NCBI GenBank assembly: GCA_964421015.1
Contig: CAYQUS010000001.1
Coordinates: 236,726-300,725 of the forward strand
DNA: 64,000 nt
Source of the DNA: an uncultured Planctomycetia bacterium
Lineage (GTDB): Bacteria; Omnitrophota; Gorgyraeia; Tantalellales; Tantalellaceae
Reading direction: 5' to 3'
Both the position numbers and the translations under genes were made by a program. Positions 4,715 through 58,373 of this stretch are shown piece after piece; the stretch's first letter is position 1; the number at the start of each line of letters is the position of its first letter. The notes under the pieces are model-generated. The model made no database searches. It saw only the letters and a program-made list of their open reading frames with translations, and was not told the origin of the DNA.

Positions 4715-5875
4715 TTACTTTTTCATGCCTACGCGCTGGGCTGACTGATATACCTTGCCTTCCGTCTGTATGGAAGGAGCTATTATCATGTTAACCTGCT
4801 GCATTTCCCTGATGTTCCTGGCCCCGAGGTTACCCATGCTGGTAGCTAAAGCCCCGACAAGGTTCTGGGTCCCGTCATCAAGCCTGGCGGGCCCGTAAAG
4901 TATCTCCTCAAGTGTCCCCGACGTACCCACCTGTATACGTGTACCTCTGGGAAGCGAAGGATGGGGCATGGCCATACCCCAGTGGTATCCTTTACCTGGA
5001 GCTTCTTCCGCTCGCGCGAAAGCGTTACCCAGCATCACCGCGTCGGCGCCGGCGGCAAAGGCCTTGCAGATATCCCCGCCCGTCGCCATCCCGCCGTCGG
5101 TTATTATGGGAACATAGATCCCGGTCTGTTTGTAATGAAAATCCCTTGCCGCCGCGCAGTCGCATGTAGCCGTTATCTGCGGTACGCCTATCCCGAGAAC
5201 TCCCCTCGACGTACAGGCCGTTCCCGGACCTATGCCAACAAAAAGGCCCTGGCAGCCCGTACCCATAAGGGAGAGAGCCGCTTTGTAATCAACGCAGTTA
5301 CCCAGAAGAACGGGTATCTTCATGTCTTTGCAGAACTTGGCCAGGTCCAGCGGTTTGTATTCCGCAGATTCGTGCCTTACGCTTATCACGGTAGACTGTA
5401 TTATAAAAATATCGCATCCGGCATCCCTGGCTATGGGACCGAATTTACCGGCCACCTGAGGATTGCAGCTGACTATAGCCGGAACCTTGGCCTTTTTTAT
5501 TTCCTTTATTCTCTTTTCTATGAGCTCTTTCTTTATCGGCGCCGAATAAACGTCCTGTATGGTCTTGGTGGACTCGCGTATATCGCACTTTATTATCTTT
5601 TCAACCGCCTTTTCAGGTCTTTCATATCGGGTTGATACGCCCTCAAGATGAAGAACGGCTATTCCGCCGAGCTTTCCCATGGCTATGGCGAAGTTCACGT
5701 CAACGACACCGTCCATTGAAGAAGCCATTATGGGCGCCTGGAACTTTATGCCTCCTATTTCGCAGGAAGTATCAACATCATTGGGATTTATTGTAAGCTC
5801 TCCGGGAACAAGAGCTACCTCGTCAAAACCGTAACTTCTCCTGGCTTTCCTTCCCATGCCGACCCACATTCCCAT
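4715..5875 (-). CDS. IMP dehydrogenase/GMP reductase-family protein lacking the CBS subdomain (GuaB3-like). Its substrate is unknown.
   Basis: 386 aa. It has the TIM-barrel IMPDH signature and catalytic Cys loop GIGPGTACTSRGVLGIGVPQ, but no CBS pair. A strong GGAGGT SD lies upstream. Confidence 0.75.
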   Translation of the reverse strand: MGMWVGMGRKARRSYGFDEVALVPGELTINPNDVDTSCEIGGIKFQAPIMASSMDGVVDVNFAIAMGKLGGIAVLHLEGVSTRYERPEKAVEKIIKCDIRESTKTIQDVYSAPIKKELIEKRIKEIKKAKVPAIVSCNPQVAGKFGPIARDAGCDIFIIQSTVISVRHESAEYKPLDLAKFCKDMKIPVLLGNCVDYKAALSLMGTGCQGLFVGIGPGTACTSRGVLGIGVPQITATCDCAAARDFHYKQTGIYVPIITDGGMATGGDICKAFAAGADAVMLGNAFARAEEAPGKGYHWGMAMPHPSLPRGTRIQVGTSGTLEEILYGPARLDDGTQNLVGALATSMGNLGARNIREMQQVNMIIAPSIQTEGKVYQSAQRVGMKK

Positions 5876-9599: not shown

Positions 9600-10462
9600 G
9601 CCGTCTTTCCTTGGTTAGGAGTTGCTGTCACATTGTCTATGAGCCTTGTGGAACCAACAAGGACCGCCGCCGCTATCAGAACGTCTGAATGTATCTCCAT
9701 TACGGGTTCCATACTTGACGGATCTAAAACCTCCAGATAGTCCGTTCTTATCCCCCGAGAGGAAGAGAGTATCTCTTTGGCCGCGGAAATGACGGCTCCG
9801 GAGTTTTTCTCCCCGCCTTCCACGGCGCTCTTGGCCCTGCAAAGAGCCTTGAATAAAAGTCCCGCCTGTACGCGTTCGTCTTTAGACAGGTACCTGTTCC
9901 TGGAGCTCATAGCAAGGCCGTCGCTTTCTCTTACCGTGGGCAGCACCTTTACCCCGGTTCTGAGATTAAGATCCGATACCATCCGTTTTATCACGAATAC
10001 CTGCTGAACGTCCTTTTGCCCGAAATAACTTTTATCCGGGTCAACGATATTGAAAAGCTTGGTCACTACCGTGGCCACTCCCCTGAAATGACCGGGCCTG
10101 GAAGCGCCGCATAAAGTCCCGACGCACTTCGAAGTAACCTCGACGAAGGTCGAATATCCTTCCGGGTACATATCCTTACCCTCCGGAAGAAAAAGAAAAT
10201 CCACCCCTTCCTTTTCCAGAGCGGCTGCGTCCCCTTCGATATCCCTTGGATATTTTTCAAGGTCTTCCCCGGGGCCAAATTGCGCTGGATTGACAAAGAT
10301 ACTTACAACAGATGTGTCACAGTCGGAAATGGAGGCTCTTACAAGGCTCAAATGTCCTTCGTGCAGACACCCCATCGTCGGCACGAAACCGATAGAAAGA
10401 CCCTGCTGCCTGGTCTTCTCTATGACCTTACGCATCCCTGTAATGGACCTTATTATTTTCAT
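9596..10462 (-). CDS. panC: Pantoate--beta-alanine ligase. The track ORF extends to 10489; the ATG at 10462 forms an ATGA overlap with the folK stop.
   Basis: Motif GFVPTMGCLHEGHLSL (PTMGxLHxGH). Confidence 0.88.
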   Translation of the reverse strand: MKIIRSITGMRKVIEKTRQQGLSIGFVPTMGCLHEGHLSLVRASISDCDTSVVSIFVNPAQFGPGEDLEKYPRDIEGDAAALEKEGVDFLFLPEGKDMYPEGYSTFVEVTSKCVGTLCGASRPGHFRGVATVVTKLFNIVDPDKSYFGQKDVQQVFVIKRMVSDLNLRTGVKVLPTVRESDGLAMSSRNRYLSKDERVQAGLLFKALCRAKSAVEGGEKNSGAVISAAKEILSSSRGIRTDYLEVLDPSSMEPVMEIHSDVLIAAAVLVGSTRLIDNVTATPNQGKTA

Positions 10463-25054: not shown

Positions 25055-25146
25055 GATCGCCTTTGCCTGGTGTTTTAATTAAAACCGGGCACTCGCTGAA
25101 TAACGTACAGCGGCCCGTTGATCGGTTCCCATAAAACAGAGCTGTA

Positions 25147-25175
25147 AAATTATCACATTTACCCGGGCTTGTCAA
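25147..25175 (-). promoter_or_regulatory. Candidate sigma70 promoter (TTGACA, 17 nt, TAATTT) for rplM-rpsI.
   Basis: Read directly. The leader to the rplM ATG is about 85 nt. Confidence 0.45.
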
Positions 25176-25361
25176 GGGGTTTTAGGAAAGAAGAAACGTA
25201 GAGAAGGCGCTATAGGTCACCCTGCGAAGTTACAGAAGATCCGCGTGGAGTAACAATGGCTTTATCCCGGTTGGAAGCCCCGGCATCCTTAATGGGCATG
25301 AGACAGACAGCCTCATACAGCCAAGCGGAAGAAATGCCTTAGGATCCCTCTATCCTGGATA

Positions 25362-25535
25362 CTATTCCCCGAAAACAGCCCTGTAAAGAGCCCTTACCTG
25401 TTTCTTGTAATAGGTATCAAAAACATTGCGCACGACCTCTTTGGATACGGCTTTGCTCGTCAGATCGGCCATTTTCTTGTTTTCCCGTCTCTGTTCGTTG
25501 ATAGTGACCCTGTGGGAAAAATTTTTCTTTGTCAT
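25362..25535 (-). CDS. Small ribbon-helix-helix (CopG/Arc-like) DNA-binding protein, 57 aa. It is not in the ORF track because it is under 60 aa.
   Basis: Manual translation gives MTKKNFSHRVTINEQRRENKKMADLTSKAVSKEVVRNVFDTYYKKQVRALYRAVFGE. The pattern is a beta-strand (RVTINE), helix, a T/S turn, then helix. Its ATG overlaps the upstream stop as ATGA. Confidence 0.5.
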   Translation of the reverse strand: MTKKNFSHRVTINEQRRENKKMADLTSKAVSKEVVRNVFDTYYKKQVRALYRAVFGE

Positions 25536-25705
25536 TTCTCTTCCTCCCCCTTTTTGGTGAACGTTATGGTGCCGTCATCCCCTACGAGAAACGCCACCTT
25601 GTCTCTCTTTCTTATATCAAAATAATCCTGAAGCACCTTGGGGATGAATATCTGCCCCCTGTCGGATACCGTAGAGTAGAATTTAAATCCTCTTTTTCTG
25701 GCCAT
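25532..25705 (-). CDS. AbrB/MazE/SpoVT-family swapped-hairpin DNA-binding protein (antitoxin-like), 57 aa from the ATG with an AAGGAG SD. The track ORF starts at the TTG at 25747.
   Basis: MARKRGFKFYSTVSDRGQIFIPKVLQDYFDIRKRDKVAFLVGDDGTITF matches the AbrB N-domain / VapB-MazE fold pattern. Confidence 0.7.
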   Translation of the reverse strand: MARKRGFKFYSTVSDRGQIFIPKVLQDYFDIRKRDKVAFLVGDDGTITFTKKGEEEK

Positions 25706-25730
25706 ACGCTCCTTCTTTTTTCCAAGTACA

Positions 25731-25764
25731 AAACAAGTATACAACAAGTATCTATACTTGTCAA
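25731..25764 (-). promoter_or_regulatory. Perfect sigma70 promoter TTGACA, 17 nt, TATACT for the AbrB-RHH cassette. A 9-bp inverted repeat ACAAGTATA/TATACTTGT and a direct repeat ATACTTGTT x2 overlap the -35, spacer and -10. This is likely an autoregulatory operator.
   Basis: Read directly. The -10 is at 25736-25741 and the -35 at 25759-25764, read on the minus strand. Confidence 0.5.
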
Positions 25765-25817
25765 ATTTTTGCGAAAAATTTTTAGCCGGTTAAATAAAAA
25801 TTATTCGCGGATGATCG

Positions 25818-42036: not shown

Positions 42037-42972
42037 TCACTCAAATATCTTACCGGCAATATCCCTGTGTCCCAGCAGGAATTCGTCGGAGGTCATGGCT
42101 TTCTTCCCCTCAAGCTGAAGCCTTCCTATCCTCAGCGCCCCTTCTCCGGCAACTACGATCAGCTTGGATCCAGATACTACCGCTTCACCCGGCCTGAGAT
42201 TTCCGTCGGGAACTTCACAGACAGCCGCCTGCAGTATCTTTAGGACTTTTCCCCCCATGTAGGTGTACGCGCCGGGCCATGGTTCCATACCCCGTACTTT
42301 GAGAGCTATCTTTTGCGCGGATGTATTCCAGTCCACTTTCCCCTCGGATTTCTCAAGCTTGGGCGCATAGGTAGCCTTCGTCTCATCCTGGGGGATAAAA
42401 TCAGCCCTGCCGTCGGCCAACATATCTACTGCTTTAAGCACGAGAGACGCGCCCCTGGCAGAAAGCTTCGTTTCGACAGTTTCAGCGGTATCGTATTCCC
42501 CCACATCCATCTGGTCCTGGATCATTATGTCCCCAGCGTCCATACGTTCATTCATCCTTATTACAGTGTTGCCGGTAACCTTATCTCCGTTAATAATGGC
42601 GCGATTTACCGGGGCTGCCCCTCTGTAAAGAGGCAAAAGTGACGGGTGCAGATTTATGCAGCACTTCGAGGGTATGGCCAGGACCTCTTTAGTCAGTATC
42701 CTTCCGTAATCTACCACTACAAAAATATCGGCGTTGAGGCTTTTAAGGTTTTCCACTACTCCATTGTCGGAAAGTTTTTCCGGCTGCAGAACCGTGAGTC
42801 CCGGAACTGTTTTCTCGACTATGTCTTTTACGGGCGTTGGCGTAACGTTCCATCCCCTTCCCTGACGGACATCAGGACGCGTAACCGCCGCGGCAACCCC
42901 GTACTTGCTTGACACAAGAGCCTTCAAAGTCGGTATCCCGAATTTTCCTGTCCCGAAAAACACTATCCGCAT
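42037..42972 (-). CDS. fmt: Methionyl-tRNA formyltransferase
   Basis: 311 aa. MRIVFFGTGKFGIPTL and a C-terminal Fmt domain. Confidence 0.92.
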   Translation of the reverse strand: MRIVFFGTGKFGIPTLKALVSSKYGVAAAVTRPDVRQGRGWNVTPTPVKDIVEKTVPGLTVLQPEKLSDNGVVENLKSLNADIFVVVDYGRILTKEVLAIPSKCCINLHPSLLPLYRGAAPVNRAIINGDKVTGNTVIRMNERMDAGDIMIQDQMDVGEYDTAETVETKLSARGASLVLKAVDMLADGRADFIPQDETKATYAPKLEKSEGKVDWNTSAQKIALKVRGMEPWPGAYTYMGGKVLKILQAAVCEVPDGNLRPGEAVVSGSKLIVVAGEGALRIGRLQLEGKKAMTSDEFLLGHRDIAGKIFE

Positions 42973-42984
42973 GCGTCCTTCACC

Positions 42985-43046
42985 TTCCCTCTTTCCACTT
43001 CCTACTTTTTACTTCCTACTTCCTACTTCCTACTTTCTACTTCTAC
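42985..43046. repeat. Tandem heptamer micro-repeat (TTCCTAC)n on the plus strand, GTAGGAA on the minus strand. About 8-9 partly degenerate copies in the priA-fmt intergenic leader.
   Basis: Read directly: ttcctac tttttac ttcctac ttcctac ttcctac tttctac ttctac. Confidence 0.8.
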
Positions 43047-43068
43047 TCATCCACCCCATCCCCTATAC

Positions 43069-45063
43069 TCAAAGCGTCATCGGGTCCACGTCAACCGACA
43101 TAAATACCCCGGAAGCTTTCCTAAAACCCTTTAGTCCGGCTCTCAGTTTCTCCACCATTTCAGGCCTTGAAGAACATTTTATCAGAATATTCCATCTGTA
43201 AAAGCCCCGCAGCTTGACCATCGGAGACGGAACCGGCCCTATCATATCTATCCCGGGTATTCTCTTCCCGAGAAGAACGGCCAGATTTTCCGAAAATTTA
43301 ATGGCATTTTCCTCTATCCTTGACCGTATGGTCAGTTTGACTATGTTCCTGAACGGCGGGAACCCCAGCTCCCTCCTTGAATGTATCTCCTCGGAATAAA
43401 AAGCGCCGTAATCATGCTTTGAAGCCATCTTTATCGCGTAATTGTCCGGAGTAAAGGTCTGCACCACTACTTCTCCCCCCAGATCTCCCCTTCCGGCCCT
43501 TCCGGCAACCTGCGTTATCAGGTTAAATGTCCTCTCGCCGCTCCTGAAGTCCGGAAGATTGAGATTAGCGTCCGCCGAAACCACACCTACAAGAGTAACC
43601 TTGGGAAAATCAAAACCTTTAGCTATCATCTGAGTGCCCACTATTACGTCTATCTTGTGGTTCTTAAAATCCGACAGCAGCCTGTCATGAGAACCTCTCT
43701 TGGACATGGTATCGGAATCCATCCTGGCTATCCTGGCGGAGGGAAGTATTTTCTTAAGCTCGCCTTCCACCTTTTCGGTGCCGGTTCCTTTGTACATCAA
43801 ATAATCCGAATTACAAGAGGGGCATATTTTCGCGGGTTTTTCACGATATCCGCAATGATGGCATAAGAGTTCCCCTCTGGTCTCGTGGTACACAAGTGGA
43901 GAATCGCATCTGCGGCACTTAAGCACGAACCCGCAGGCGCGGCACACAACAAAAGTCGAGAAACCCCGCCTGTTCAGGAATATTAGAGCCTGTTGCCCCT
44001 TGGATATGTCCTTTTTGAGAGCTTCGGCCAGCACGCTCGATATGACCTTCTTCCCGGTCCTGGTTTCCATCTCCATACGCATGTCCACAAGTCTTACCCT
44101 GGGAAGCTCTTTTTCTTTTATCCGCTGAGTAAGTTCCACAAGCCTGTATTCCCCGCTTAGAGCCTTATGGTAAGATTCCAGGCTGGGAGTCGCGCTTCCC
44201 AATATTACAGGAATACCAGCTGCCCTGGCCCGCTCTATAGCCACTTCCCTGGCGTGGTACCTCGGAACATCATCCTGTTTGTAGCTGGGTTCGTGTTCCT
44301 CGTCTATGATGAATATCCCCGGATCCTTAAAAGGGCTGAAAACGGCGGACCTGGGGCCCACGACCACACTGGCTTCTCCCTTTTTTATCTTTTTCCATTC
44401 CACGAACCTGGCGCTTTCCAGCATCTTGGAGTGGAATACCGCCACATTTTCTCCGAAACGAGACTTGAAACTTTCCACGGTCTGAGGCGTCAGGGATATC
44501 TCCGGAACCAGTATAACCGCCGATCTGCCTTTTGAAAGTACCTTTTGAGCGGTCTGAAGATATATTTCTGTCTTACCGCTTCCTGTTATCCCGTGGAGAA
44601 GGAAAACTTCATGCCTTCTTTCGTCAAGACACCGTATCACGCTTTCAAGCACGGCTTTCTGTTCGGCGTTCGGTTCATGAGGCCGCGTAGCCGCGACAGG
44701 TACTTGCTCTTCCTTTATCCTGGACTGGGAAGATACCCTCCCGTGTTTCAGTACTCCGGGTATCATCGCTTCAAGAGCCTCTCCCCATGAGCAGAAGTAA
44801 TTGTCCTTCATCCACCGGGCAAGATCTATCATAGCGCTGTCAAAAACGGGTTCCTCGTCTATCACATCAATGAGGTCTTTCGGGCTGTCGACTACCGGCT
44901 TCTCTTCAACACCGACAATGTAGCCAACTCTCCTGGAACTTCCGAAAGAAATATAAACCCTTTTCCCGATTTCCGCGCTAAAAGCGGTCTTATCCGGAAC
45001 CCTGTACTGGAAAGTACTGTCTATGGGAAGGCCCGTTGCTACCTCTACATACCGCTCTTTCAT
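43069..45063 (-). CDS. priA: Primosomal protein N' (replication restart helicase). The start is taken at the internal ATG giving MKERYVEVATGLP, which avoids a 73-nt overlap with udg. The track ORF runs to 45165.
   Basis: DEAD-like helicase motifs and the Cys-rich zinc-binding insert CRACGFV...CHHCGY...CPSC. Confidence 0.9.
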   Translation of the reverse strand: MKERYVEVATGLPIDSTFQYRVPDKTAFSAEIGKRVYISFGSSRRVGYIVGVEEKPVVDSPKDLIDVIDEEPVFDSAMIDLARWMKDNYFCSWGEALEAMIPGVLKHGRVSSQSRIKEEQVPVAATRPHEPNAEQKAVLESVIRCLDERRHEVFLLHGITGSGKTEIYLQTAQKVLSKGRSAVILVPEISLTPQTVESFKSRFGENVAVFHSKMLESARFVEWKKIKKGEASVVVGPRSAVFSPFKDPGIFIIDEEHEPSYKQDDVPRYHAREVAIERARAAGIPVILGSATPSLESYHKALSGEYRLVELTQRIKEKELPRVRLVDMRMEMETRTGKKVISSVLAEALKKDISKGQQALIFLNRRGFSTFVVCRACGFVLKCRRCDSPLVYHETRGELLCHHCGYREKPAKICPSCNSDYLMYKGTGTEKVEGELKKILPSARIARMDSDTMSKRGSHDRLLSDFKNHKIDVIVGTQMIAKGFDFPKVTLVGVVSADANLNLPDFRSGERTFNLITQVAGRAGRGDLGGEVVVQTFTPDNYAIKMASKHDYGAFYSEEIHSRRELGFPPFRNIVKLTIRSRIEENAIKFSENLAVLLGKRIPGIDMIGPVPSPMVKLRGFYRWNILIKCSSRPEMVEKLRAGLKGFRKASGVFMSVDVDPMTL

Positions 45064-45092
45064 GCCTTGTCTTGACTCCCCTGCTGCGTGTT

Positions 45093-45791
45093 CTATTTTT
45101 TCCCTTTTTCCCGCGCTGGTATTTTTATGCCAAGCTCGGAAGCTATCGCCTTCATATCCTGCCATACTTCCTTCTTGCTCGCGGGATTCCTAAGAAGATA
45201 CGCCGGATGGTACGTCGGCATAAGCTTCACCCCGTTATAGTCGTGAAACTTACCTCTTAGTTCGCTGATAGGTATCTCGGTGTTAAGGAGCGTCTGAGCC
45301 GCAAACTTCCCCAGCGCGCAGATAACTTTGGGATTTATGGCTCTTATCTGGGACATGAGATACGAAGAACACTTCTCTATCTCATCCGGCAGGGGGTTCC
45401 TGTTTTCCGGCGGACGGCACTTTAATATGTTGGCTATATAAACGTCCTCTCTTTTAAGCCCCATGGCTTCAATTATGCCCGTTAAAAGTTTACCGGCTTT
45501 ACCCACAAAAGGTTTTCCCTGCAGGTCTTCATCCCTGCCGGGAGCTTCTCCCACGAACATAAGACCCGCCTTAAAATTACCTTCCCCGAATACCGTATTT
45601 GTCCTGGTTTTAGAAAGCCCGCAAAGTTCGCAAACAGAAACTTCCTTCCGGATAGGCGCCAGAGCATCGGTTCCCGAAGAGCATTTTGCTGCCGGCTTAT
45701 GCGGAGCCCCGTTTTCCCCAGCGTAGATCTCACCAACCCCGGCCATGATCTCCGAATCCGCTATCTGTCTTAAAGATCTGACTACGTTCAC
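45093..45791 (-). CDS. Uracil-DNA glycosylase, family 4 (4Fe-4S type)
   Basis: 232 aa. GEAPG motif (MFVGEAPGRDEDLQGKPFVGKAG) and ILKCRPPENRNP. Confidence 0.88.
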   Translation of the reverse strand: MNVVRSLRQIADSEIMAGVGEIYAGENGAPHKPAAKCSSGTDALAPIRKEVSVCELCGLSKTRTNTVFGEGNFKAGLMFVGEAPGRDEDLQGKPFVGKAGKLLTGIIEAMGLKREDVYIANILKCRPPENRNPLPDEIEKCSSYLMSQIRAINPKVICALGKFAAQTLLNTEIPISELRGKFHDYNGVKLMPTYHPAYLLRNPASKKEVWQDMKAIASELGIKIPAREKGKK

Positions 45792-52105: not shown

Positions 52106-53179
52106 TTACTTGTTTTTTATCAGCTCAAGGCATGCTTCAGCTACCTTTTCCGGCCCTATATCCACCACGCACCTCTGTTCATAGGCGCATTCCGGAAGCT
52201 TGAAATTACCGTAACACGGCCGGCACGGAAGACCCGAAACCCTTATCACCCTGTGTCTCCCCTTTATCGGGAAAGGCCCGTACACAGTTTCGTCTACCGG
52301 CCCGAAAATAGAAACTGTCTTTGTGCCAAGCGCTACCGCTATATGAAGCGGCCCTCCGTCATTACAAAGAACTATACCGGCCCGGCTCATAATTCCCATA
52401 TATTCCCGGAGATCAAGACCGTTCTCAACGGCAGCCGGCGGAACGGACATTTCCGAAGCCACGTAATCGCAAAGTGCTTTTTCGGAAGGATCCCCCATAA
52501 TAACGGTCCGGATACCTCTTTCCTCGAGCGTTTCCGCTACCTTGGCAAAACCTTCCGCCCTCCATCTTTTCCTGGAAGCGTGGCGCCCCCAACTGGCCCC
52601 TCCCCCCGGTATTACGGCCGCGAATTTTTTATCCGCAAGCCCTTTTTTCCTGAGGTATTCGTCCGTCACAGACACCGTACCCTCGTCGGGAACTATCAGC
52701 ATTTCTTTTTCTTCCGCCTTTATACCCAGGCTCTCCATAACTTCAAGGTAATGTTCTATGACATGTTTGTCCCTGAACCCCGTAATTTTTACGCGGTGTG
52801 TGAGAAAGAGCCCTCTTCCCTTGTAATCCAGGCCGGCGCGGAGTTTTATCCCCGCCAAGGCGAAAAAAAGACCGAATTCCCTGGACATCGTAAAATCAAG
52901 CACAGCCTCGTACTTGGCTTTCTTAATTCCGTTAAAGAGCGAGTACAGCTCCCTGAACCATTCTATTTTGGACCTTTTCCAAAGAGAAACGTAATTATCC
53001 CTTTCGTAAACAAAAATATCATTCACACCTGGGATACATCGGACTATCTCGGATGCGCGCGCGTTGCAGAGATATCCCACGGATACTCCGGGAAACGCCC
53101 TTCTAAGATTAGCCGCGATAGGCGAGGTAAAAAGAACGTCGCCTATTCCGAAAATATTAGCGATAAGGATCTTTTTCAA
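52106..53179 (-). CDS. ADP-heptose:LPS heptosyltransferase (GT9)
   Basis: 357 aa. N-terminus KILIANIFGIGDVLFTSP and a GT9 C-terminal domain. Confidence 0.82.
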   Translation of the reverse strand: MKKILIANIFGIGDVLFTSPIAANLRRAFPGVSVGYLCNARASEIVRCIPGVNDIFVYERDNYVSLWKRSKIEWFRELYSLFNGIKKAKYEAVLDFTMSREFGLFFALAGIKLRAGLDYKGRGLFLTHRVKITGFRDKHVIEHYLEVMESLGIKAEEKEMLIVPDEGTVSVTDEYLRKKGLADKKFAAVIPGGGASWGRHASRKRWRAEGFAKVAETLEERGIRTVIMGDPSEKALCDYVASEMSVPPAAVENGLDLREYMGIMSRAGIVLCNDGGPLHIAVALGTKTVSIFGPVDETVYGPFPIKGRHRVIRVSGLPCRPCYGNFKLPECAYEQRCVVDIGPEKVAEACLELIKNK

Positions 53180-54395
53180 GCTGCTCTCCTCTGCCGGGGC
53201 CCGCGCTTGACGATAAAGTAACGCCTATTATGATATTAAAGAACACAGCAAGCGTAAGAGAAAAAAGATGCGTGTCTACCGCGCTATTCAGCAAAAAACC
53301 CACCGTTCCGCCGAACATACCCACTGAGAAATTTTTTTGATATCCCCCTGGCATTGACAATATGCCCTTAAGAGAACAGCCAAGAGCGGCTACCATAAAA
53401 CATATCATGAGCAGCGCCCCCGGGATACCTATTTCAGAAGCTGTCTGGAGGTAACAGTTATGCGCGTACCTGTCATCGATGTATCCCTGCGGCTTATAAT
53501 CCGGGAAATGCTTACTGAAGGTATTTACACCGAACCCCAGTACCGGATGTTCTTTTATCATATCGACGCTCCCCCTCCAGAGCATCACTCTTTCCCACGA
53601 AGTCCCGCTCTTAAGATCAGCCGTTTCGTATATCCTCTGTCGGGAAGAGGACGGCATTAAGATAAAAACCAAAACAAGTATCCCCATAAAAAGCGCAGCC
53701 GTTTTTTTGCCTTTCAAGATCCCGACAACCACGAATGCCGCGGCAAAAGACATCCATGCTCCGCGTGACCCGGTAAGAAAAAGACAAACCAAAGCTAAAG
53801 CCAGAACCGTAAAAAACAGCATTGTTCTTTTTATCCCGTTCTTCGGCGATAAAAGCATGGGAACAAACAAAGATCCTACCACTATCAGATAAGCCCCGAA
53901 ATCATTCGGGTGGATAAACGACGACGATATTCTCCTTAGATATTCGTCAGGGATAAGTGTCCTGTGCCGCAGAAGATCCTCGCCGGTTATGTATTGGAAT
54001 ATCCCGTTAACCGTGACAAGAAAGGTCGCGCCGGCAGCGGCATAGAGAAACTTCCTGGATTTTCCCTCCGGCCAAACCTGAGTGGAGACCGCCATAAAAA
54101 CAAGAGCGTATTGAAGAGCCTTGAAAATTCCCCTGAAACTTTCTTTCGGGTACTGAGAGTTAAAACACGAAAGAATAACCCATAAAAAATAAGCCCCAAG
54201 GAATATCGCCGGTAAAGACCGGAGTTTTCTGTAGTCGCCTTTAATTATCGTCCCCAGAACCCAGGCCGTTATAAGAATTGTGGAAACTATCTCGACCATA
54301 GAGTTCGAGAAGGTGATCACGAATATAAGAACGTAAACGCACCACTCGACCGCCTTATCCAGAAACCCCGTAATTTGCTCTCTCGTAACCCTCAT
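53157..54395 (-). CDS. O-antigen ligase/polymerase-like (Wzy_C) membrane protein, paralog of the gene at 62466-63716
   Basis: 412 aa polytopic protein. The periplasmic-loop motif HPVLGFGVNTF...YAHNCYLQTASEIGIPG is shared with the second copy. Confidence 0.75.
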   Translation of the reverse strand: MRVTREQITGFLDKAVEWCVYVLIFVITFSNSMVEIVSTILITAWVLGTIIKGDYRKLRSLPAIFLGAYFLWVILSCFNSQYPKESFRGIFKALQYALVFMAVSTQVWPEGKSRKFLYAAAGATFLVTVNGIFQYITGEDLLRHRTLIPDEYLRRISSSFIHPNDFGAYLIVVGSLFVPMLLSPKNGIKRTMLFFTVLALALVCLFLTGSRGAWMSFAAAFVVVGILKGKKTAALFMGILVLVFILMPSSSRQRIYETADLKSGTSWERVMLWRGSVDMIKEHPVLGFGVNTFSKHFPDYKPQGYIDDRYAHNCYLQTASEIGIPGALLMICFMVAALGCSLKGILSMPGGYQKNFSVGMFGGTVGFLLNSAVDTHLFSLTLAVFFNIIIGVTLSSSAGPGRGEQLEKDPYR

Positions 54396-54414
54396 GCTAC
54401 TCCTCTTCCGCTCT

Positions 54415-54492
54415 CAACCTGAACCTAAACCTCAACCTCAACCTTAACCTCTCCTTCCCCCTTCCTCCTTACTCCTTACTACTTTCTACTTA
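54415..54492. repeat. Tandem hexamer repeat (N)AACCT x6 on the plus strand, i.e. GAGGTT/AAGGTT on the minus strand. It is followed by a CT-rich tract and lies in the 5' leader of the ligase-like gene.
   Basis: Read directly: caacct gaacct aaacct caacct caacct taacct ctccttcccccttcctccttactcc. Confidence 0.8.
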
Positions 54493-54512
54493 GCTAATCC
54501 CTCCCCCCGCGC

Positions 54513-55898
54513 CTAATACGCGTTTTTCATAGCGAACACCGACATGAAAAGTATCTTTATGTCGAACATGATAGACCAGTTTTCAACGTAATAAAGGTCG
54601 TATTTTGTCCGCTCTTCTATCGAGGTGTTGCCTCTAAGGCCGTTAACCTGGGCCCAACCAGTCATTCCTGACTTGATCTTATGCCGGGCCATATACCTGG
54701 GTATGTCCTTTTTGAACTTACCCACAAAATGGGGCCTTTCAGGCCTTGGCCCCACAAGGCTCATCTCACCCTTCAGCACGTTTATAAGCTGTGGAAGCTC
54801 ATCTATATTGGTCCGCCTGAGAAAACTTCCTACCCGTGTCCTCCTGGGGTCATTCTCTTTTGCCCAAACCGGTCCCGTACCCTTTTCGGCATTCTCTATC
54901 ATGGTGCGGAACTTTATTATGGCGAACCTCCGGCCGTCTTCTCCCACCCTCTTCTGAAGATAAAACACCCTTCCGGGAGAACTTAACTTTATAAGGGCCG
55001 AAACTACAATGAATACCGGAGAGAGCGCCGCTATGGCTAAAAGGGAGATCAGAATATCCATTGCCCTTTTTATCACTCTGTTTATCCACTCAGCCAGCGG
55101 AGATTCCTTAAGGCCCAGGAGCGGGACTCCGTCTATTGTCCTCATATCCACCTGTGAGGTCACCATACCCAGAAGATCAGCAACTATCCTTACTTCAACA
55201 AGGTTTTTCTCGCACTCCAGTATTATCTCCATTATCTCAGACCTGGGAATATCGGCCTCAGTGACTATAACCTCGTCCACGTCATATTTTTGAAGAGCCG
55301 GAGCCAGATTTTCCATGCCCCCCTCCACAACTACATTGGCTACCTTTGAAGTGTCTTTAGACTTAACCCTAAGAACCGCCTTTATGTCATAGTCCCAGTG
55401 AGGATCCTCGGAAATATGATCTATAAGCCGGGGGACCATTTCGCCGTCACCTATAATGAGAAGGTTCCTGGACTTCTCCCTGAGCGCGAACCTTATCCGG
55501 TTGACCACAAAACGCCAGAGAGACAAAAAGAGGATGAGAACCCCCCACGCCAGGATAAGCATCCCTCTTGAAAACGAAAATTCCCTGTAAAGAAAGGTAC
55601 CCGCCATGAAGACCAGTATCCCTACAGAAACGCTCCTTACTATGGAGAAGAACTCATCGACGATAGAAAGCCTTGCCCTTACGGAATAAAGCTTGTCGGA
55701 CCTGATAAGAAAGACCATTATGAGGGTTAGGACAGGAAGAGTTCGGAAATAATGGCTCACGCTCGGTATACCGTAAGCGACGGGGAAAAACCCTGAACTG
55801 AACCTGAACCAGTATGAAAAAAGAAGCCCCGCGTTGACAGCAAGTATATCGCCCAAGACCAGGATAAGTATTACCCTGAAATCGTTCCTTATTCTCAT
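54513..55898 (-). CDS. Polyprenyl-phosphate sugar phosphotransferase (bacterial sugar transferase, WbaP/EpsL-like). This is the initiating enzyme.
   Basis: 461 aa. N-terminal TM segments and the C-terminal motif LVGPRPERPHFV...SGMTGWAQVNG. Confidence 0.85.
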   Translation of the reverse strand: MRIRNDFRVILILVLGDILAVNAGLLFSYWFRFSSGFFPVAYGIPSVSHYFRTLPVLTLIMVFLIRSDKLYSVRARLSIVDEFFSIVRSVSVGILVFMAGTFLYREFSFSRGMLILAWGVLILFLSLWRFVVNRIRFALREKSRNLLIIGDGEMVPRLIDHISEDPHWDYDIKAVLRVKSKDTSKVANVVVEGGMENLAPALQKYDVDEVIVTEADIPRSEIMEIILECEKNLVEVRIVADLLGMVTSQVDMRTIDGVPLLGLKESPLAEWINRVIKRAMDILISLLAIAALSPVFIVVSALIKLSSPGRVFYLQKRVGEDGRRFAIIKFRTMIENAEKGTGPVWAKENDPRRTRVGSFLRRTNIDELPQLINVLKGEMSLVGPRPERPHFVGKFKKDIPRYMARHKIKSGMTGWAQVNGLRGNTSIEERTKYDLYYVENWSIMFDIKILFMSVFAMKNAY

Positions 55899-57174: not shown

Positions 57175-57675
57175 CTATGATTCCTTTATCGCATAACGCC
57201 CCGCCGCCATAAGGTATCCCTTGGCCCGCTCCGCGAGCTTGTACCTGTTAACGATATCACAAAAAGCCTTACCGTGATTCGGCTCGACCAAGTGAGCCAT
57301 CTCATGGACGATCACATAGTCCCTTACCCATAGCGGCATTTCTTTTAGCCTTGAGGATATCTTTATCTTTCCCGTACGGCTGTCGCATGACCCGTAACGC
57401 TTATTTTGCCTCGATGAATATTCGATGGAAGAGACATTTAGTTTATTTCCGAAATATTTTTTATTTATCCGTGCCGCTACATCCCGTAGCGATCTCCCCT
57501 TCCTGAGATCATCTTTGGCCCGCCTCCGCTCAAACTTGTCCTTAAAACTCTCTATTATTCTGTCCAGATACTGTTTGTTTATTGCGGCCGGAGCGGCCAC
57601 CAAAAGCACACCTCCTTCCGTCCTGGCCGATACCGTTCTTTTCCTTTTCGAACTGTACGATATTTTTACTTCCAC
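57175..57675 (-). CDS. DUF45/YgjP-like zinc metallo-hydrolase (HExxH). The proposed GTG start at 57675 lies just after the upstream stop codon. The track TTG at 57795 would create a 105-nt same-strand overlap.
   Basis: WVRDYVIVHEMAHLVEPNHGKAF (HEMAH zinc motif). The N-terminus (M)EVKISYSSKRKRTVSARTEGGVLLVAAP is typical of DUF45. Confidence 0.65.
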   Translation of the reverse strand: MEVKISYSSKRKRTVSARTEGGVLLVAAPAAINKQYLDRIIESFKDKFERRRAKDDLRKGRSLRDVAARINKKYFGNKLNVSSIEYSSRQNKRYGSCDSRTGKIKISSRLKEMPLWVRDYVIVHEMAHLVEPNHGKAFCDIVNRYKLAERAKGYLMAAGRYAIKES

Positions 57676-57689
57676 ATCCGCCTTCCCAC

Positions 57690-58373
57690 TTAAAAAGAAA
57701 ATTTTAGTTTTGTCCCGAGAATATTGTAATCGGTCCAGATATCTTTCCCTTTGCTTGTTTGAAGGATATAGTGCACATCCAGCGTAAGACCCCAAAAAAG
57801 GGCAAACTCAAGTCCCGAGTAAAGCCTGTTACGATTAAACTCAAAGTGCCTTGAAAGATCAAAATAAAGCTCGTCGCCTGCATAAGGGGCGAACTGTAAC
57901 TTACCAATATTCATGGGGATCTTGGCCTTAAAGAAGTTTCGGTACCGCCAGTTATCCTTTTTATCCTCTATGTCCCTATATTCCAGCCTGCTGCGGTCGC
58001 TCAATTTAAAACCGAATAAGTCAAACTTAAGCGTACCGTCAAGTTTACCCACGTTTTCATACATCCAGCTTTTCTTACCTTTGTTGAATATCTGCCTGTA
58101 CCCGGCCTTTATCTCAAACCATTTTGCTATTCCCAAATAGGAAACGCTGAGGTCATAATGCTGATAATAAAGCTGACTTGCGCCTCCTCCCCATCTCAGT
58201 TCGTCCTCGAGTGATAGTTTCCAGTCCTTTGCGGCCTTCCACTCTATCTCGTTCACGTTCCAATACTGAAAATCCCCGTCTTCATAGGCCATCGCCGGAT
58301 GATCCCAAACACACCATACAATTACGGCTAAAATTATCCCGATTATTGATTTTATCGGTATTGAATTTTTCAT
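57690..58373 (-). CDS. DUF2490-like outer-membrane beta-barrel protein
   Basis: 227 aa with a signal peptide and alternating amphipathic beta strands rich in Y/W/F. It ends in ...KLKFSF, the aromatic C-terminal OMP signature. Confidence 0.6.
   Translation of the reverse strand: MKNSIPIKSIIGIILAVIVWCVWDHPAMAYEDGDFQYWNVNEIEWKAAKDWKLSLEDELRWGGGASQLYYQHYDLSVSYLGIAKWFEIKAGYRQIFNKGKKSWMYENVGKLDGTLKFDLFGFKLSDRSRLEYRDIEDKKDNWRYRNFFKAKIPMNIGKLQFAPYAGDELYFDLSRHFEFNRNRLYSGLEFALFWGLTLDVHYILQTSKGKDIWTDYNILGTKLKFSF

What the first reader, a model, noticed from the sequence alone, without database searches (positions are those of the whole stretch)
42973..43068. Tandem heptamer purine-rich repeat (GTAGGAA)n filling the priA-fmt intergenic leader
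The 96-nt spacer between the priA stop and the fmt ATG is almost entirely a 7-nt period tandem array of about 8-9 partly degenerate units. On the coding strand these read GTAGAAG GTAGAAA GTAGGAA GTAGGAA GTAGGAA GTAAAAA GTAGGAA GTGGAAA. A G-rich segment GGGGATGGGGTGG precedes the array. Each unit contains an SD-like AGGAAG. The 7-nt period is not a multiple of 3, and the array sits in a 5' UTR. Possibilities are a ribosome standby or translational enhancer array, a binding platform for an RNA-binding protein, or a slipped-strand (SSR) phase-variable element that changes leader length.
Basis: seen in the sequence. Interest (0 to 1): 0.55.

Follow-up and report, generated by a model that had tools for sequence, protein, structure and literature searches.

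The report
Heptamer repeat spacer between priA and fmt
The 96-base gap between two housekeeping genes of an uncultured Omnitrophota bacterium really is a tandem 7-base repeat, but it is one more example of the heptamer repeats already known to fill gaps between bacterial genes. It most likely arose by recent copying slippage rather than as a dedicated switch.

Summary
Window 42973-43068 (minus strand) is the 96-nt priA-fmt spacer. It holds about 8 degenerate GTAGRAA units, is 83% purine, and has a 93-nt C-free run. It is predicted to be unpaired, and three independent assemblies carry it.

The array is not a special device. A second, similar purine-rich leader lies at 54396-54512. In 633 kb of Omnitrophota loci, 103 of 133 short tandem arrays have period 7, with 78 unrelated units, and most are intergenic.

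Sister lineages (65-69% Fmt identity) keep the priA-fmt gene order but have 44-220 nt spacers. These carry other purine-rich heptamers (GGGGTAA, GGTAAGA) or none. One lineage has GAGTAGGAA as a single copy, which indicates expansion in place.

Three strains (98.7-99.4% identity) all have a 96-nt spacer, so phase variation at this array is unsupported. The neighbouring hexamer array does differ between strains, 6 versus 9 units.

The core units bind the anti-SD only weakly. The real SD is GGTGA.

Best reading: a slippage-born heptameric SSR, of the STRR/LSSR kind, tolerated in an unstructured, C-free, stop-rich intercistronic leader. A ribosome standby role is possible but unproven.

Verdict: new member of a known kind, low to moderate interest.

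The parts
42973..43068 (-). Complete 96-nt priA-fmt intercistronic spacer. It is 83% purine, with only 2 C, both in the last 5 nt.
   Evidence: ORF map and Pfam; sequence; composition
42993..43047 (-). Heptamer array core. Units in order: GTAGAA, GTAGAAA, GTAGGAA x3, GTAAAAA, GTAGGAA, GTGGAAA.
   Evidence: TRF period 7, 8.1 copies, score 75; pattern search 7 hits versus 0.61 expected
43051..43063 (-). G-rich block GGGGATGGGGTGG just after the priA stop codon. It has the strongest anti-SD complementarity in the 5' half of the spacer. Its start, GTAT(A/G)GGGGA, is shared with the L176 lineage.
42978..42984 (-). Probable Shine-Dalgarno of fmt (GGTGAAG), 5 nt before the ATG. The same GGTGA/GGTGG motif precedes fmt in relatives L176, L169 and L174.
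   Evidence: anti-SD duplex about -9.8 kcal/mol here
42954..42982 (-). Predicted weak hairpin (-8.8 kcal/mol). It pairs the SD-proximal purines and the AUG with the U-rich codons for V4-F5-F6.
   Evidence: prediction only
42037..42972 (-). fmt (methionyl-tRNA formyltransferase), the downstream gene
   Evidence: Pfam Formyl_trans_N/C; homologues
43069..45165 (-). priA (primosomal helicase), the upstream gene. Gene callers start it at 45063, giving 664 aa.
   Evidence: Pfam PriA domains; called genes in L001
54396..54512 (-). Second leader of the same kind, lying between the sugar transferase and O-antigen ligase genes. It has a G-run, then heptamers GTAGAAA GTAGTAA GGAGTAA GGAGGAA GGGGGAA (54451-54492), then hexamers (GGTTNA)x6 (54413-54451). 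The hexamer copy number differs between strains.

Best explanation
The array is a heptameric simple-sequence repeat that expanded in place, by replication slippage, from a single-copy seed (GAGTAGGAA). The seed lay inside an older purine-rich leader, bearing a Shine-Dalgarno, between priA and fmt. The array belongs to the class of intergenic heptanucleotide repeats: cyanobacterial STRR, the 'LSSR' of Mrazek 2007, TAACTGA in Beggiatoaceae, and GGGAATC/GGGGATT in Xanthomonas and Nostoc. This class is very common in many Omnitrophota.

The array is transcribed within the priA-fmt mRNA. It is tolerated there for four reasons. It cannot fold, because it has almost no C. It offers no C-rich Rho loading site. 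It carries stop codons in all three frames. It leaves the real fmt SD (GGTGA) untouched.

Its main consequence is to lengthen the untranslated gap from about 45 nt to 96 nt. As a result fmt is initiated de novo rather than by tight coupling to priA termination. Any positive effect as a single-stranded ribosome landing tract would be secondary.

Shown: the repeat itself, its context, the turnover between lineages, stable length in three strains, and the period-7 excess. Inferred: the slippage origin, co-transcription, the tolerance filter, and the effect on coupling.
For: The period-7 excess is independent of unit sequence. In 633 kb of Omnitrophota loci, 103 of 133 arrays with at least 3 copies have period 7, and period 8 is next with 12. 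Block-shuffled sequence yields only 2. There are 78 distinct units among 108 arrays and no shared motif. About 80% of arrays are intergenic although about 91% of the sequence is coding.

Turnover at the orthologous site is rapid. Lineages at 65-69% Fmt identity keep priA-fmt synteny. Their spacers are 44-45 nt of (GGGGTAA/GGGCAAA)n in L002 and L005, 220 nt with (GGTAAGA)3 and (AAGGTT)n in L176, and 56-100 nt with no array in L169, L170 and L174. L176 shares the 5' end GTATGGGGGA with the window and has GAGTAGGAA only once.

There is no sequence-level constraint. The window differs from L001 at 3 of 96 positions and from L008 at 8 of 96, against locus means of 0.6% and 1.3%. This is similar to other intergenic spacers.

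Slippage is active in this genome. The only sizeable indel in about 24 kb compared between strains is +3 hexamer units in the second leader.

The array is predicted unpaired, with z = 0.08 against shuffles. No promoter or terminator is predicted on the gene strand, there is no Rfam match, and there is no inverted partner within 1 kb either side.

Literature supports the class. Heptanucleotide repeats are the most abundant long-SSR class in many bacteria, and a polymerase-slippage origin has been proposed (Mrazek 2007, as summarised in PMC4679880 and PMC4692102).
Against: The genome is tightly packed, with many overlapping or 1-30 nt gene junctions. A 96-nt functionless tract is therefore somewhat unexpected. 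Purine-rich heptamer-like arrays sit at this same junction in 4 of 7 sampled sister lineages, which could reflect selection rather than shared ancestry. The extreme strand asymmetry (93 nt without C, P about 5e-9 at the intergenic C frequency) needs either an RNA-level filter or a purine-only seed. No copy-number change was seen at this array in three strains. The 7-nt slippage bias itself is a literature hypothesis and was not tested here.
Confidence: 0.55

Rival explanations
1. Ribosome standby or landing tract. The C-free, unpaired purine tract lets 30S subunits, or post-termination ribosomes leaving priA, dwell next to a weakly structured fmt start site. They can then capture the site when its hairpin opens, which raises fmt translation.
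For: The array is fully unpaired in the MFE and centroid folds. A -8.8 kcal/mol hairpin covers the SD-proximal purines and the AUG, and similar weak pairings between the purine leader and the conserved UUUUUY codons (F5-F6) appear in relatives. SD-like affinity is raised across the spacer: 27 of 88 nine-nt windows reach -6 kcal/mol or lower, against 8% window-wide. The sister lineages L002, L005 and L176 also have purine-rich leaders.
Against: The fold is no more stable than shuffles (z = 0.08), and the hairpin is weak. The core units bind the anti-SD weakly, and most of the affinity lies in the flanks. Lineages L169, L170 and L174 manage with 56-100 nt leaders that have no array. There is no sequence conservation among strains.
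Confidence: 0.2
2. Contingency or tunable SSR. Gain and loss of units changes the leader length and thereby tunes or switches fmt expression within populations.
For: This is a tandem repeat in a 5' leader. The hexamer array in the sister leader differs between strains of about 99% identity, 6 versus 9 units. The L008 contig ends exactly at the spacer. A heptamer SSR in a 5'-UTR controls hmw1A expression in H. influenzae (PMC12721329).
Against: All three strains have a 96-nt spacer. The array is imperfect (86% matches), and its longest perfect run is 3 units, so slippage should be slow. fmt is a housekeeping gene, not a surface or contingency gene. Unlike hmw, the array has no pairing partner to form a hairpin.
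Confidence: 0.1
3. Binding platform for an RNA-binding protein. Candidates are a CsrA-type protein recognising GGA (9 GGA in 96 nt, one next to the SD) and a HutP/TRAP-type ring protein recognising UAG triplets spaced 7 nt apart. Either would repress or activate fmt.
For: The spacer has 9 GGA and 7 UAG motifs, with the UAG at a strict 7-nt spacing. MacGregor proposed S1, Csp or CsrA-like binders for TAACTGA heptamer repeats (PMC4679880). The HutP (UAGNNNN)3 motif is recalled from memory and was not tested.
Against: The motifs are not conserved. L008 loses two UAG, L001 swaps GGA and GAA units, and sister lineages use GGGGTAA or have no array. The GGA motifs do not sit in hairpin loops. No terminator or antiterminator is predicted. 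None of the roughly 58 genes in the window encodes an RNA-binding regulator by Pfam. Units across the phylum share no motif.
Confidence: 0.07
4. G-quadruplex element. G-runs in the leader fold into an RNA or DNA G4 that modulates fmt translation, as proposed for the GGGAATC and GGGGATT heptamer repeats.
For: The sister-lineage spacers L002 and L005 are canonical G3+ tracts with 2-4 nt loops. The window has GGGGATGGGGTGG at the 5' end. Rehm 2015 showed G4 formation by G-rich heptamer repeats (PMC4692102).
Against: The window array has only GG doublets with 5-nt loops. Folding with G4 energies enabled predicts no quadruplex in spacer 1, and only a two-tier one in spacer 2.
Confidence: 0.03

Closest known systems
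Heptanucleotide long simple-sequence repeats, also called STRR (Mazel 1990 in Calothrix; Mrazek 2007 survey; cited in PMC4692102 and PMC4679880)
   Same: Both are head-to-tail 7-nt units located between genes. Arrays are many per lineage, with period 7 far in excess of periods 5, 6, 8 and 9. Length and sequence vary between close relatives, and function is unknown.
   Different: The host phylum, Omnitrophota, was not reported for such repeats in the searched library. The unit GTAGGAA is new. This array is strongly purine-rich and C-free on the mRNA strand, and it lies inside an operon between two housekeeping genes.
TAACTGA direct repeats of marine Beggiatoaceae, cyanobacteria and Bacteroidetes (MacGregor 2015, PMC4679880)
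   Same: Both are heptamer direct repeats in forward orientation in the leader just upstream of start codons, including those of essential genes. A translational role has been suggested for TAACTGA repeats but is unproven. One Omnitrophota relative (L019) has (TAACTGG/TTACTGG)x11 ending 11 nt upstream of fmt.
   Different: In BOGUAY one unit dominates (169 sets), and the repeats overlap the expected RBS where no SD is present. Here units are highly diverse (78 kinds), and a normal SD (GGTGA) follows the array.
G-rich heptamer repeats GGGAATC (Xanthomonas) and GGGGA(T/C)T (Nostoc) (Rehm 2015, PMC4692102)
   Same: [quoted passage not shown] Inverted pairs occur. The sister-lineage spacers (GGGGTAA)n are of this G4-capable type.
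   Different: The window unit has only GG doublets, and no G4 is predicted.
H. influenzae hmw1A (ATCTTTC)n 5'-UTR phase-variable repeat (PMC12721329, PMC8262952)
   Same: Both are heptamer SSRs transcribed within a 5' leader, with a G-rich block in the same leader.
   Different: The hmw repeats pair with the G-rich arm to form a long hairpin that RNase III cuts, and their copy number varies and sets expression. Here the repeat and the G-block are both purine-rich and cannot pair. No hairpin is predicted, and no copy-number change was seen in three strains.
Ribosome standby sites (unstructured flanks next to a structured RBS; de Smit and van Duin, and Sterk et al. 2018, both from memory)
   Same: A long single-stranded tract lies immediately 5' of a start region that can form a hairpin.
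   Different: The hairpin is weak, nothing has been tested, and relatives lack the tract.

Membership tests
Heptanucleotide intergenic SSR (STRR/LSSR class) | Head-to-tail tandem copies of a 7-nt unit, at least 3 copies, beyond chance | tested here: met
   TRF period 7, 8.1 copies, score 75; 0 of 100 shuffles reach the observed pattern count
Heptanucleotide intergenic SSR (STRR/LSSR class) | Non-coding (intergenic) location | tested here: met
   The array lies wholly between the priA stop and the fmt ATG. About 80% of Omnitrophota heptamer arrays are intergenic.
Heptanucleotide intergenic SSR (STRR/LSSR class) | Lineage-wide excess of period 7 over neighbouring periods | tested here: met
   103 of 133 arrays have period 7, against 5 with period 6 and 12 with period 8. 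Shuffled control gives 2. The excess is patchy: some lineages have 0 arrays per 20 kb and others 4-8 per 10 kb. The window itself has only 2.
Heptanucleotide intergenic SSR (STRR/LSSR class) | Rapid change of length and sequence between close relatives at the same site | tested here: met
   Spacers of 44-220 nt with different units, or with none, in lineages of 65-69% Fmt identity
Phase-variable (contingency) SSR | Copy-number polymorphism among strains or reads | tested here: not met
   The spacer is 96 nt in the window, L001 and L008. The sample is only three assemblies and includes no read-level data. The neighbouring hexamer array does vary.
Phase-variable (contingency) SSR | Long perfect tract that favours slippage | tested here: not met
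   86% matches; the longest perfect run is 3 units
Phase-variable (contingency) SSR | Unit number changes expression of the downstream gene | not testable with these tools
   Needs a reporter series or transcript and protein data
Ribosome standby site / translational enhancer | Single-stranded tract adjacent to a structured ribosome-binding site | tested here: inconclusive
   The tract is unpaired. The RBS hairpin is only -8.8 kcal/mol, and the overall fold is no better than shuffles.
Ribosome standby site / translational enhancer | Tract-dependent 30S binding and increased translation | not testable with these tools
   Biochemical or reporter assay required
Tandem Shine-Dalgarno array | Each unit pairs well with the 16S anti-SD | tested here: not met
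   GTAGGAA units give -4 to -5 kcal/mol and GTAGAAA/GTAAAAA units about 0. Only the flanks reach -9 to -10. The anti-SD sequence was assumed to be CACCUCCUU.
CsrA/Rsm target | Multiple GGA motifs, one overlapping the SD, typically in hairpin loops, and conserved | tested here: not met
   There are 9 GGA motifs and one is near the SD. They are not in loops and are not conserved in strains or relatives. Presence of csrA in the genome was not tested.
HutP/TRAP-type NAG-repeat site | Regularly spaced UAG/GAG triplets that control a terminator, with a cognate protein present | tested here: not met
   The UAG spacing of 7 nt is present. However, no terminator is predicted and UAG triplets are lost in L008. 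The protein gene is not testable here because only 64 kb of the genome is available.
RNA G-quadruplex leader | At least four G-tracts of 3 or more G with short loops | tested here: not met
   Only two G4 tracts plus GG doublets. No G4 appears in the G4-enabled fold. The criterion is met in the sister lineages L002 and L005 by sequence.

The most novel reading that the evidence does not exclude
Heptamer arrays in Omnitrophota are not junk. On this reading they form a selected system of intercistronic punctuation written in 7-nt repeats. Purine-rich, C-free arrays after stop codons would act as Rho-proof, structure-free tracks on which ribosomes land or scan to the next gene. Inverted array pairs would form long hairpins for RNase III processing or termination. 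The priA-fmt array would then be a working part of such a phylum-level architecture of gene expression.
Probability: 0.12. Interest if true: 0.6.

Novelty: new member of a known kind. Interest (0 to 1): 0.3.

Why it matters
Taken alone the array matters little. It is a fast-evolving repeat in front of a housekeeping gene, with no sign of switching.

Its value is as a pointer. Many Omnitrophota, an uncultured phylum with compact genomes, carry dense and extremely diverse heptamer arrays between genes. Arrays occur in 13% of co-directional spacers of 20 nt or more in the sample, and period 7 outnumbers every other period roughly ten to one.

Two questions have been open since 1990/2007: why 7 nt is favoured, and whether such repeats act on translation or mRNA processing. 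A phylum with many independent units, inverted pairs and strain-level metagenome data is a good comparative system for separating a polymerase slippage bias from RNA-level selection.

Tried and rejected
(1) 'All-frame stop array'. Units on the sense strand contain a stop triplet in 35 of 69 arrays, against 19 of 69 on the antisense strand. Shuffling the letters of each unit predicts 32.5, so base composition explains the difference.

(2) Shared motif among units, such as ACTG or TAACTG. No 4-mer stands out, and there are 78 distinct units among 108 arrays.

(3) Known RNA family. Rfam gives 0 hits at gathering threshold for the whole window, and 0 at E up to 1 for 42850-43200.

(4) Hairpin partner for the array. 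No meaningful inverted repeat lies within 1 kb either side, and no complementary copy exists anywhere in the window.

(5) Promoter or terminator in the spacer. None is predicted on the gene strand.

(6) Other GTAGRAA arrays elsewhere. Among the 177 fetched loci, only the two same-species strains have them.

(7) Test for 7-nt indel steps in strain pairs from other lineages. BLAST pairs gave too few indels inside arrays to say anything.

(8) The metagenome scan for close relatives returned only one locus above 55% identity. The sister lineages came from exact-protein look-ups instead.

(9) RNA-binding regulators in the window. Pfam annotation of about 58 genes found only housekeeping functions.

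Full report
**Observation**

All genes around the finding are on the minus strand. ORF 43069-45165 carries the full set of PriA domains, and ORF 42037-42972 carries Formyl_trans_N/C with the N-terminus MRIVFFGTG. The gap between them is therefore exactly 42973-43068, which is 96 nt.

On the gene strand the gap reads:
- GTATA GGGGATGGGGTGG ATGA
- GTAGAA GTAGAAA GTAGGAA GTAGGAA GTAGGAA GTAAAAA GTAGGAA GTGGAAA
- GAGGGAA GGTGAAG GACGC ATG

TRF calls 42993-47 as period 7, 8.1 copies, 86% matches and score 75. A 14-nt two-unit pattern with up to 2 mismatches hits 7 times against 0.61 expected, and no shuffle out of 100 reaches 7. The composition is A38 C2 G42 T14, with a 93-nt run that has no C. Only this spacer and 54447-54510 reach 85% purine over 60 nt anywhere in the 64 kb.

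Two other assemblies carry the same spacer: Logan SRR27544757 (L001/L178) and SRR25779726 (L008). The first unit has 6 nt, and only four units contain AGGAAG.

**Organism and context**

Fmt homologues are named Candidatus Omnitrophota, and the nearest GTDB species representative is only 67% identical. The window is ordinary housekeeping DNA. It encodes dnaE, the dap and arg pathways, rplM-rpsI, leuBCD-like genes, opp, secG-tpi-pgk-gap, a GT4 glycosyltransferase, fmt, priA, UDG, a glycan/O-antigen cluster and pst. Most gene junctions overlap or are 1-30 nt long.

No promoter or terminator is predicted on the gene strand in the spacer. There is no Rfam match. No inverted partner for the array lies within 1 kb either side. 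The array is completely unpaired in the predicted fold, which is no more stable than shuffles (z = 0.08). With G4 energies enabled, no quadruplex is predicted.

**A second leader of the same kind**

Between the sugar-transferase gene (54513-55898) and the O-antigen-ligase gene (53157-54395) lies a 117-nt spacer that is 77% purine. Its layout is similar to the first: a G-run, then GTAGAAA GTAGTAA GGAGTAA GGAGGAA GGGGGAA, then (GGTTNA)x6, then the SD GAGGAG. It shares the string GTAGAAAGTAG with the first spacer.

**Strain comparison**

L001/L178 is 99.4% identical to the window over the 12.2-kb L001 segment (98.7% over the 14.3-kb L178 alignment that extends upstream). L001 aligns without any gap over its 12.2 kb. 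In the priA-fmt spacer it shows three G/A exchanges, at the same variable position of three consecutive units, and the length is unchanged.

L008 is 98.7% identical to the window and also has 96 nt. It has 8 differences from the window inside the spacer, against 1.3 expected. Other intergenic spacers also diverge at about 2%. The array therefore evolves like unconstrained DNA, and in L008 it loses two of its UAG triplets.

In the second leader the same strain pair differs by three hexamer units (6 versus 9) and by one G in the G-run. This is the only sizeable indel in about 24 kb compared. Slippage is therefore active in these leaders on a strain time-scale. Copy-number change at the GTAGGAA array itself was not seen in three genomes.

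**Sister lineages**

Seven lineages at 65-69% Fmt identity keep the UDG-priA-fmt-GT4-gap order. Their priA-fmt spacers differ widely:

| Lineage | Spacer length | Content |
|---|---|---|
| L002, L005 | 44-45 nt | GGGGCAAA GGGGTAA GGGCAAA GAGGTAA... |
| L176 | 220 nt | (AAGGTT)n, a ~135-nt hairpin-rich insertion, (GGTAAGA)3 |
| L169, L170-173, L174 | 56-100 nt | no array |

L176 begins GTATGGGGGA, like the window's GTATAGGGGA, and contains GAGTAGGAA once. The simplest reading is that an ancestral purine-rich leader ended in the SD GGTGA, and different local heptamers expanded within it in different lineages.

**Wider sample**

Upstream of fmt in more distant Omnitrophota there are unrelated heptamer arrays:
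- (CTGGTAA/CTGGTTA)x11 in L019
- (CGAACGA)n in L031
- (GAACTTT)3 in L033
- (CGCTANN)n in L039
- (CCCTTGN)n in L040

TRF was run on 633 kb, comprising the window plus 39 Omnitrophota loci. It finds 133 arrays with at least 3 copies, of which 103 have period 7, 12 have period 8 and 5 have period 6. Block-shuffled sequence gives 2. In 590 kb of other phyla the count is 33 of 96, concentrated in Verrucomicrobiota, WOR-3, Stahlbacteria and a deltaproteobacterium.

About 80% of the arrays are intergenic, although about 91% of the sequence is coding by a crude ORF call. Of 296 co-directional spacers of 20 nt or more, 39 contain an array. The distribution is patchy. Some lineages have none in 20 kb and others have 4-8 per 10 kb.

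Units are very diverse, with 78 kinds among 108 arrays and no enriched motif. On the mRNA strand the arrays are modestly A-rich and C-poor: A .35 and C .15, against .30 and .19 in other intergenic DNA. The two window arrays are the extreme of this trend.

Stop triplets in the units are no more frequent than composition predicts. Many arrays begin within 15 nt of the upstream stop codon, and many occur as inverted pairs able to form long hairpins. These two points come from crude gene calls and were not pursued.

**What is known**

The following come from the papers read, plus my memory of Mazel 1990 for the STRR name.
- Heptanucleotide repeats were described in Calothrix.
- Mrazek et al. 2007 found them to be the most abundant class of long SSR in many bacterial genomes, and suggested that polymerase slippage favours 7 nt (summarised in PMC4679880 and PMC4692102).
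- TAACTGA repeats sit just upstream of start codons in Beggiatoaceae. S1, Csp or CsrA-like binders have been proposed for them (PMC4679880).
- GGGAATC and GGGGATT repeats in Xanthomonas and Nostoc can form G4 structures, and they vary between close relatives at conserved sites (PMC4692102).
- The H. influenzae hmw1A (ATCTTTC)n repeat is transcribed in the 5'-UTR. It pairs with a G-rich arm and is cut by RNase III, and its copy number sets expression (PMC12721329).

A search for Omnitrophota together with heptamer repeats found nothing relevant.

**Mechanism**

I commit to the following, at about 55%. The array is a slippage-born heptameric SSR that expanded in place from a single GAGTAGGAA seed in a purine-rich leader. 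It is carried passively in the priA-fmt transcript.

It persists because it is harmless there. It cannot fold or pair with neighbours. It lacks the C residues that Rho needs, which is an inference from the established C-rich nature of rut sites. It stops any stray ribosome in all three frames. It also leaves the GGTGA SD intact. Its effect is to widen the untranslated gap, so that fmt relies on its own SD.

The main rival, at about 20%, is a standby or landing role. The tract is single-stranded and sits next to a weak hairpin (-8.8 kcal/mol) over the SD and AUG. However, the core units bind the anti-SD poorly (-4 to -5 kcal/mol, against -9 to -10 in the flanks), and relatives do without an array.

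The remaining rivals are weaker. Phase variation is at about 10%, a sequence-specific protein platform at about 7%, and a G4 element at about 3%. The evidence against them is the constant length, the lack of conservation, and the absence of G-tracts, respectively.

**Verdict**

It is a new member of a known kind (heptameric intergenic SSR) rather than a new device. The generality of such arrays in Omnitrophota seems unreported and is the more interesting by-product. Interest is 0.3.

Noticed in passing
window 54396-54512 (minus strand); L178 8614-8747: A second purine-rich repeat leader lies between a sugar-transferase gene and an O-antigen-ligase gene. Its (GGTTNA) hexamer array has 6 units in the window and 9 in a strain of about 99% identity, and its G-run is G6 versus G5. 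This is the only sizeable indel in about 24 kb compared. The 66%-identity relative (L179/L180) has a 102-nt spacer without arrays.
   Followed up: yes
L022 6769-6865; L033 8909-9010; L039 4430-4507; L040 about 9880-9977; L030 3549-3700: Many Omnitrophota intergenic regions hold two heptamer (or octamer) arrays that are reverse complements of each other, usually with the purine-rich arm first. They would form long imperfect hairpins in the mRNA. This is reminiscent of the hmw 5'-UTR hairpin cut by RNase III in H. influenzae.
   Followed up: partly
L176 2754-2973: The priA-fmt spacer of a sister lineage contains a ~135-nt insertion rich in hairpins (TCCCCCC...GGGGGGA; CAGAATACAGAATTTC...GAAATTCTGTATTCTG). 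It sits inside an (AAGGTT)n array and looks like a small mobile element.
   Followed up: no
L030 3339-3368, 3581-3610, 19161-19190: An identical composite heptamer array, AGTTACCAGAAACCGGTTACCAGTTACCAG, occurs three times in 20 kb. Some arrays are therefore dispersed copies rather than local expansions. Its reverse complement resembles the (CTGGTAA)n array upstream of fmt in L019 and the TAACTGA repeats of Beggiatoaceae.
   Followed up: no
L014 about 4790-4921; L016 about 9870-10000; L026 about 830-960: Upstream of fmt in other Omnitrophota there are direct repeats of about 47 nt with an internal hairpin (GTCATTCCCGCGGAAGCGGGAATCCAGAAAG). There are also REP-like GTCATTGCGAGG...GCAATC elements.
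   Followed up: no
L026 8970-9102; L041 10115-10254; L019 9912-9989: Some heptamer arrays are very long: (TGTGTGA)x19 at a contig end, (TACGAAT)x20 ending 1 nt before a start codon, and (GTAACTG)x11 ending 11 nt before fmt.
   Followed up: no
Omnitrophota loci L009-L062 (table): About 29 of 68 co-directional intergenic heptamer arrays begin within 15 nt of the upstream gene's stop codon or overlap it. About 14 end within 15 nt of the downstream start. This rests on crude ORF-based gene calls.
   Followed up: partly
window about 57430-58300 versus L178 4841-5696: Identity between the two strains drops from about 99% to 93%, with several 1-nt indels at the boundary, inside the glycan cluster (YgjP-like and DUF2490 genes). 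This is a possible recombination tract.
   Followed up: no
window 42037-42972: The fmt ORF has no nucleotide difference between the window and strain L001 over 936 nt, although the surrounding genes differ at about 0.6%.
   Followed up: no
window 25055-25817: A 763-nt gene-free gap lies upstream of rplM-rpsI. It has no Rfam match at gathering threshold and contains a short 11-nt repeat at 25723-25751.
   Followed up: no
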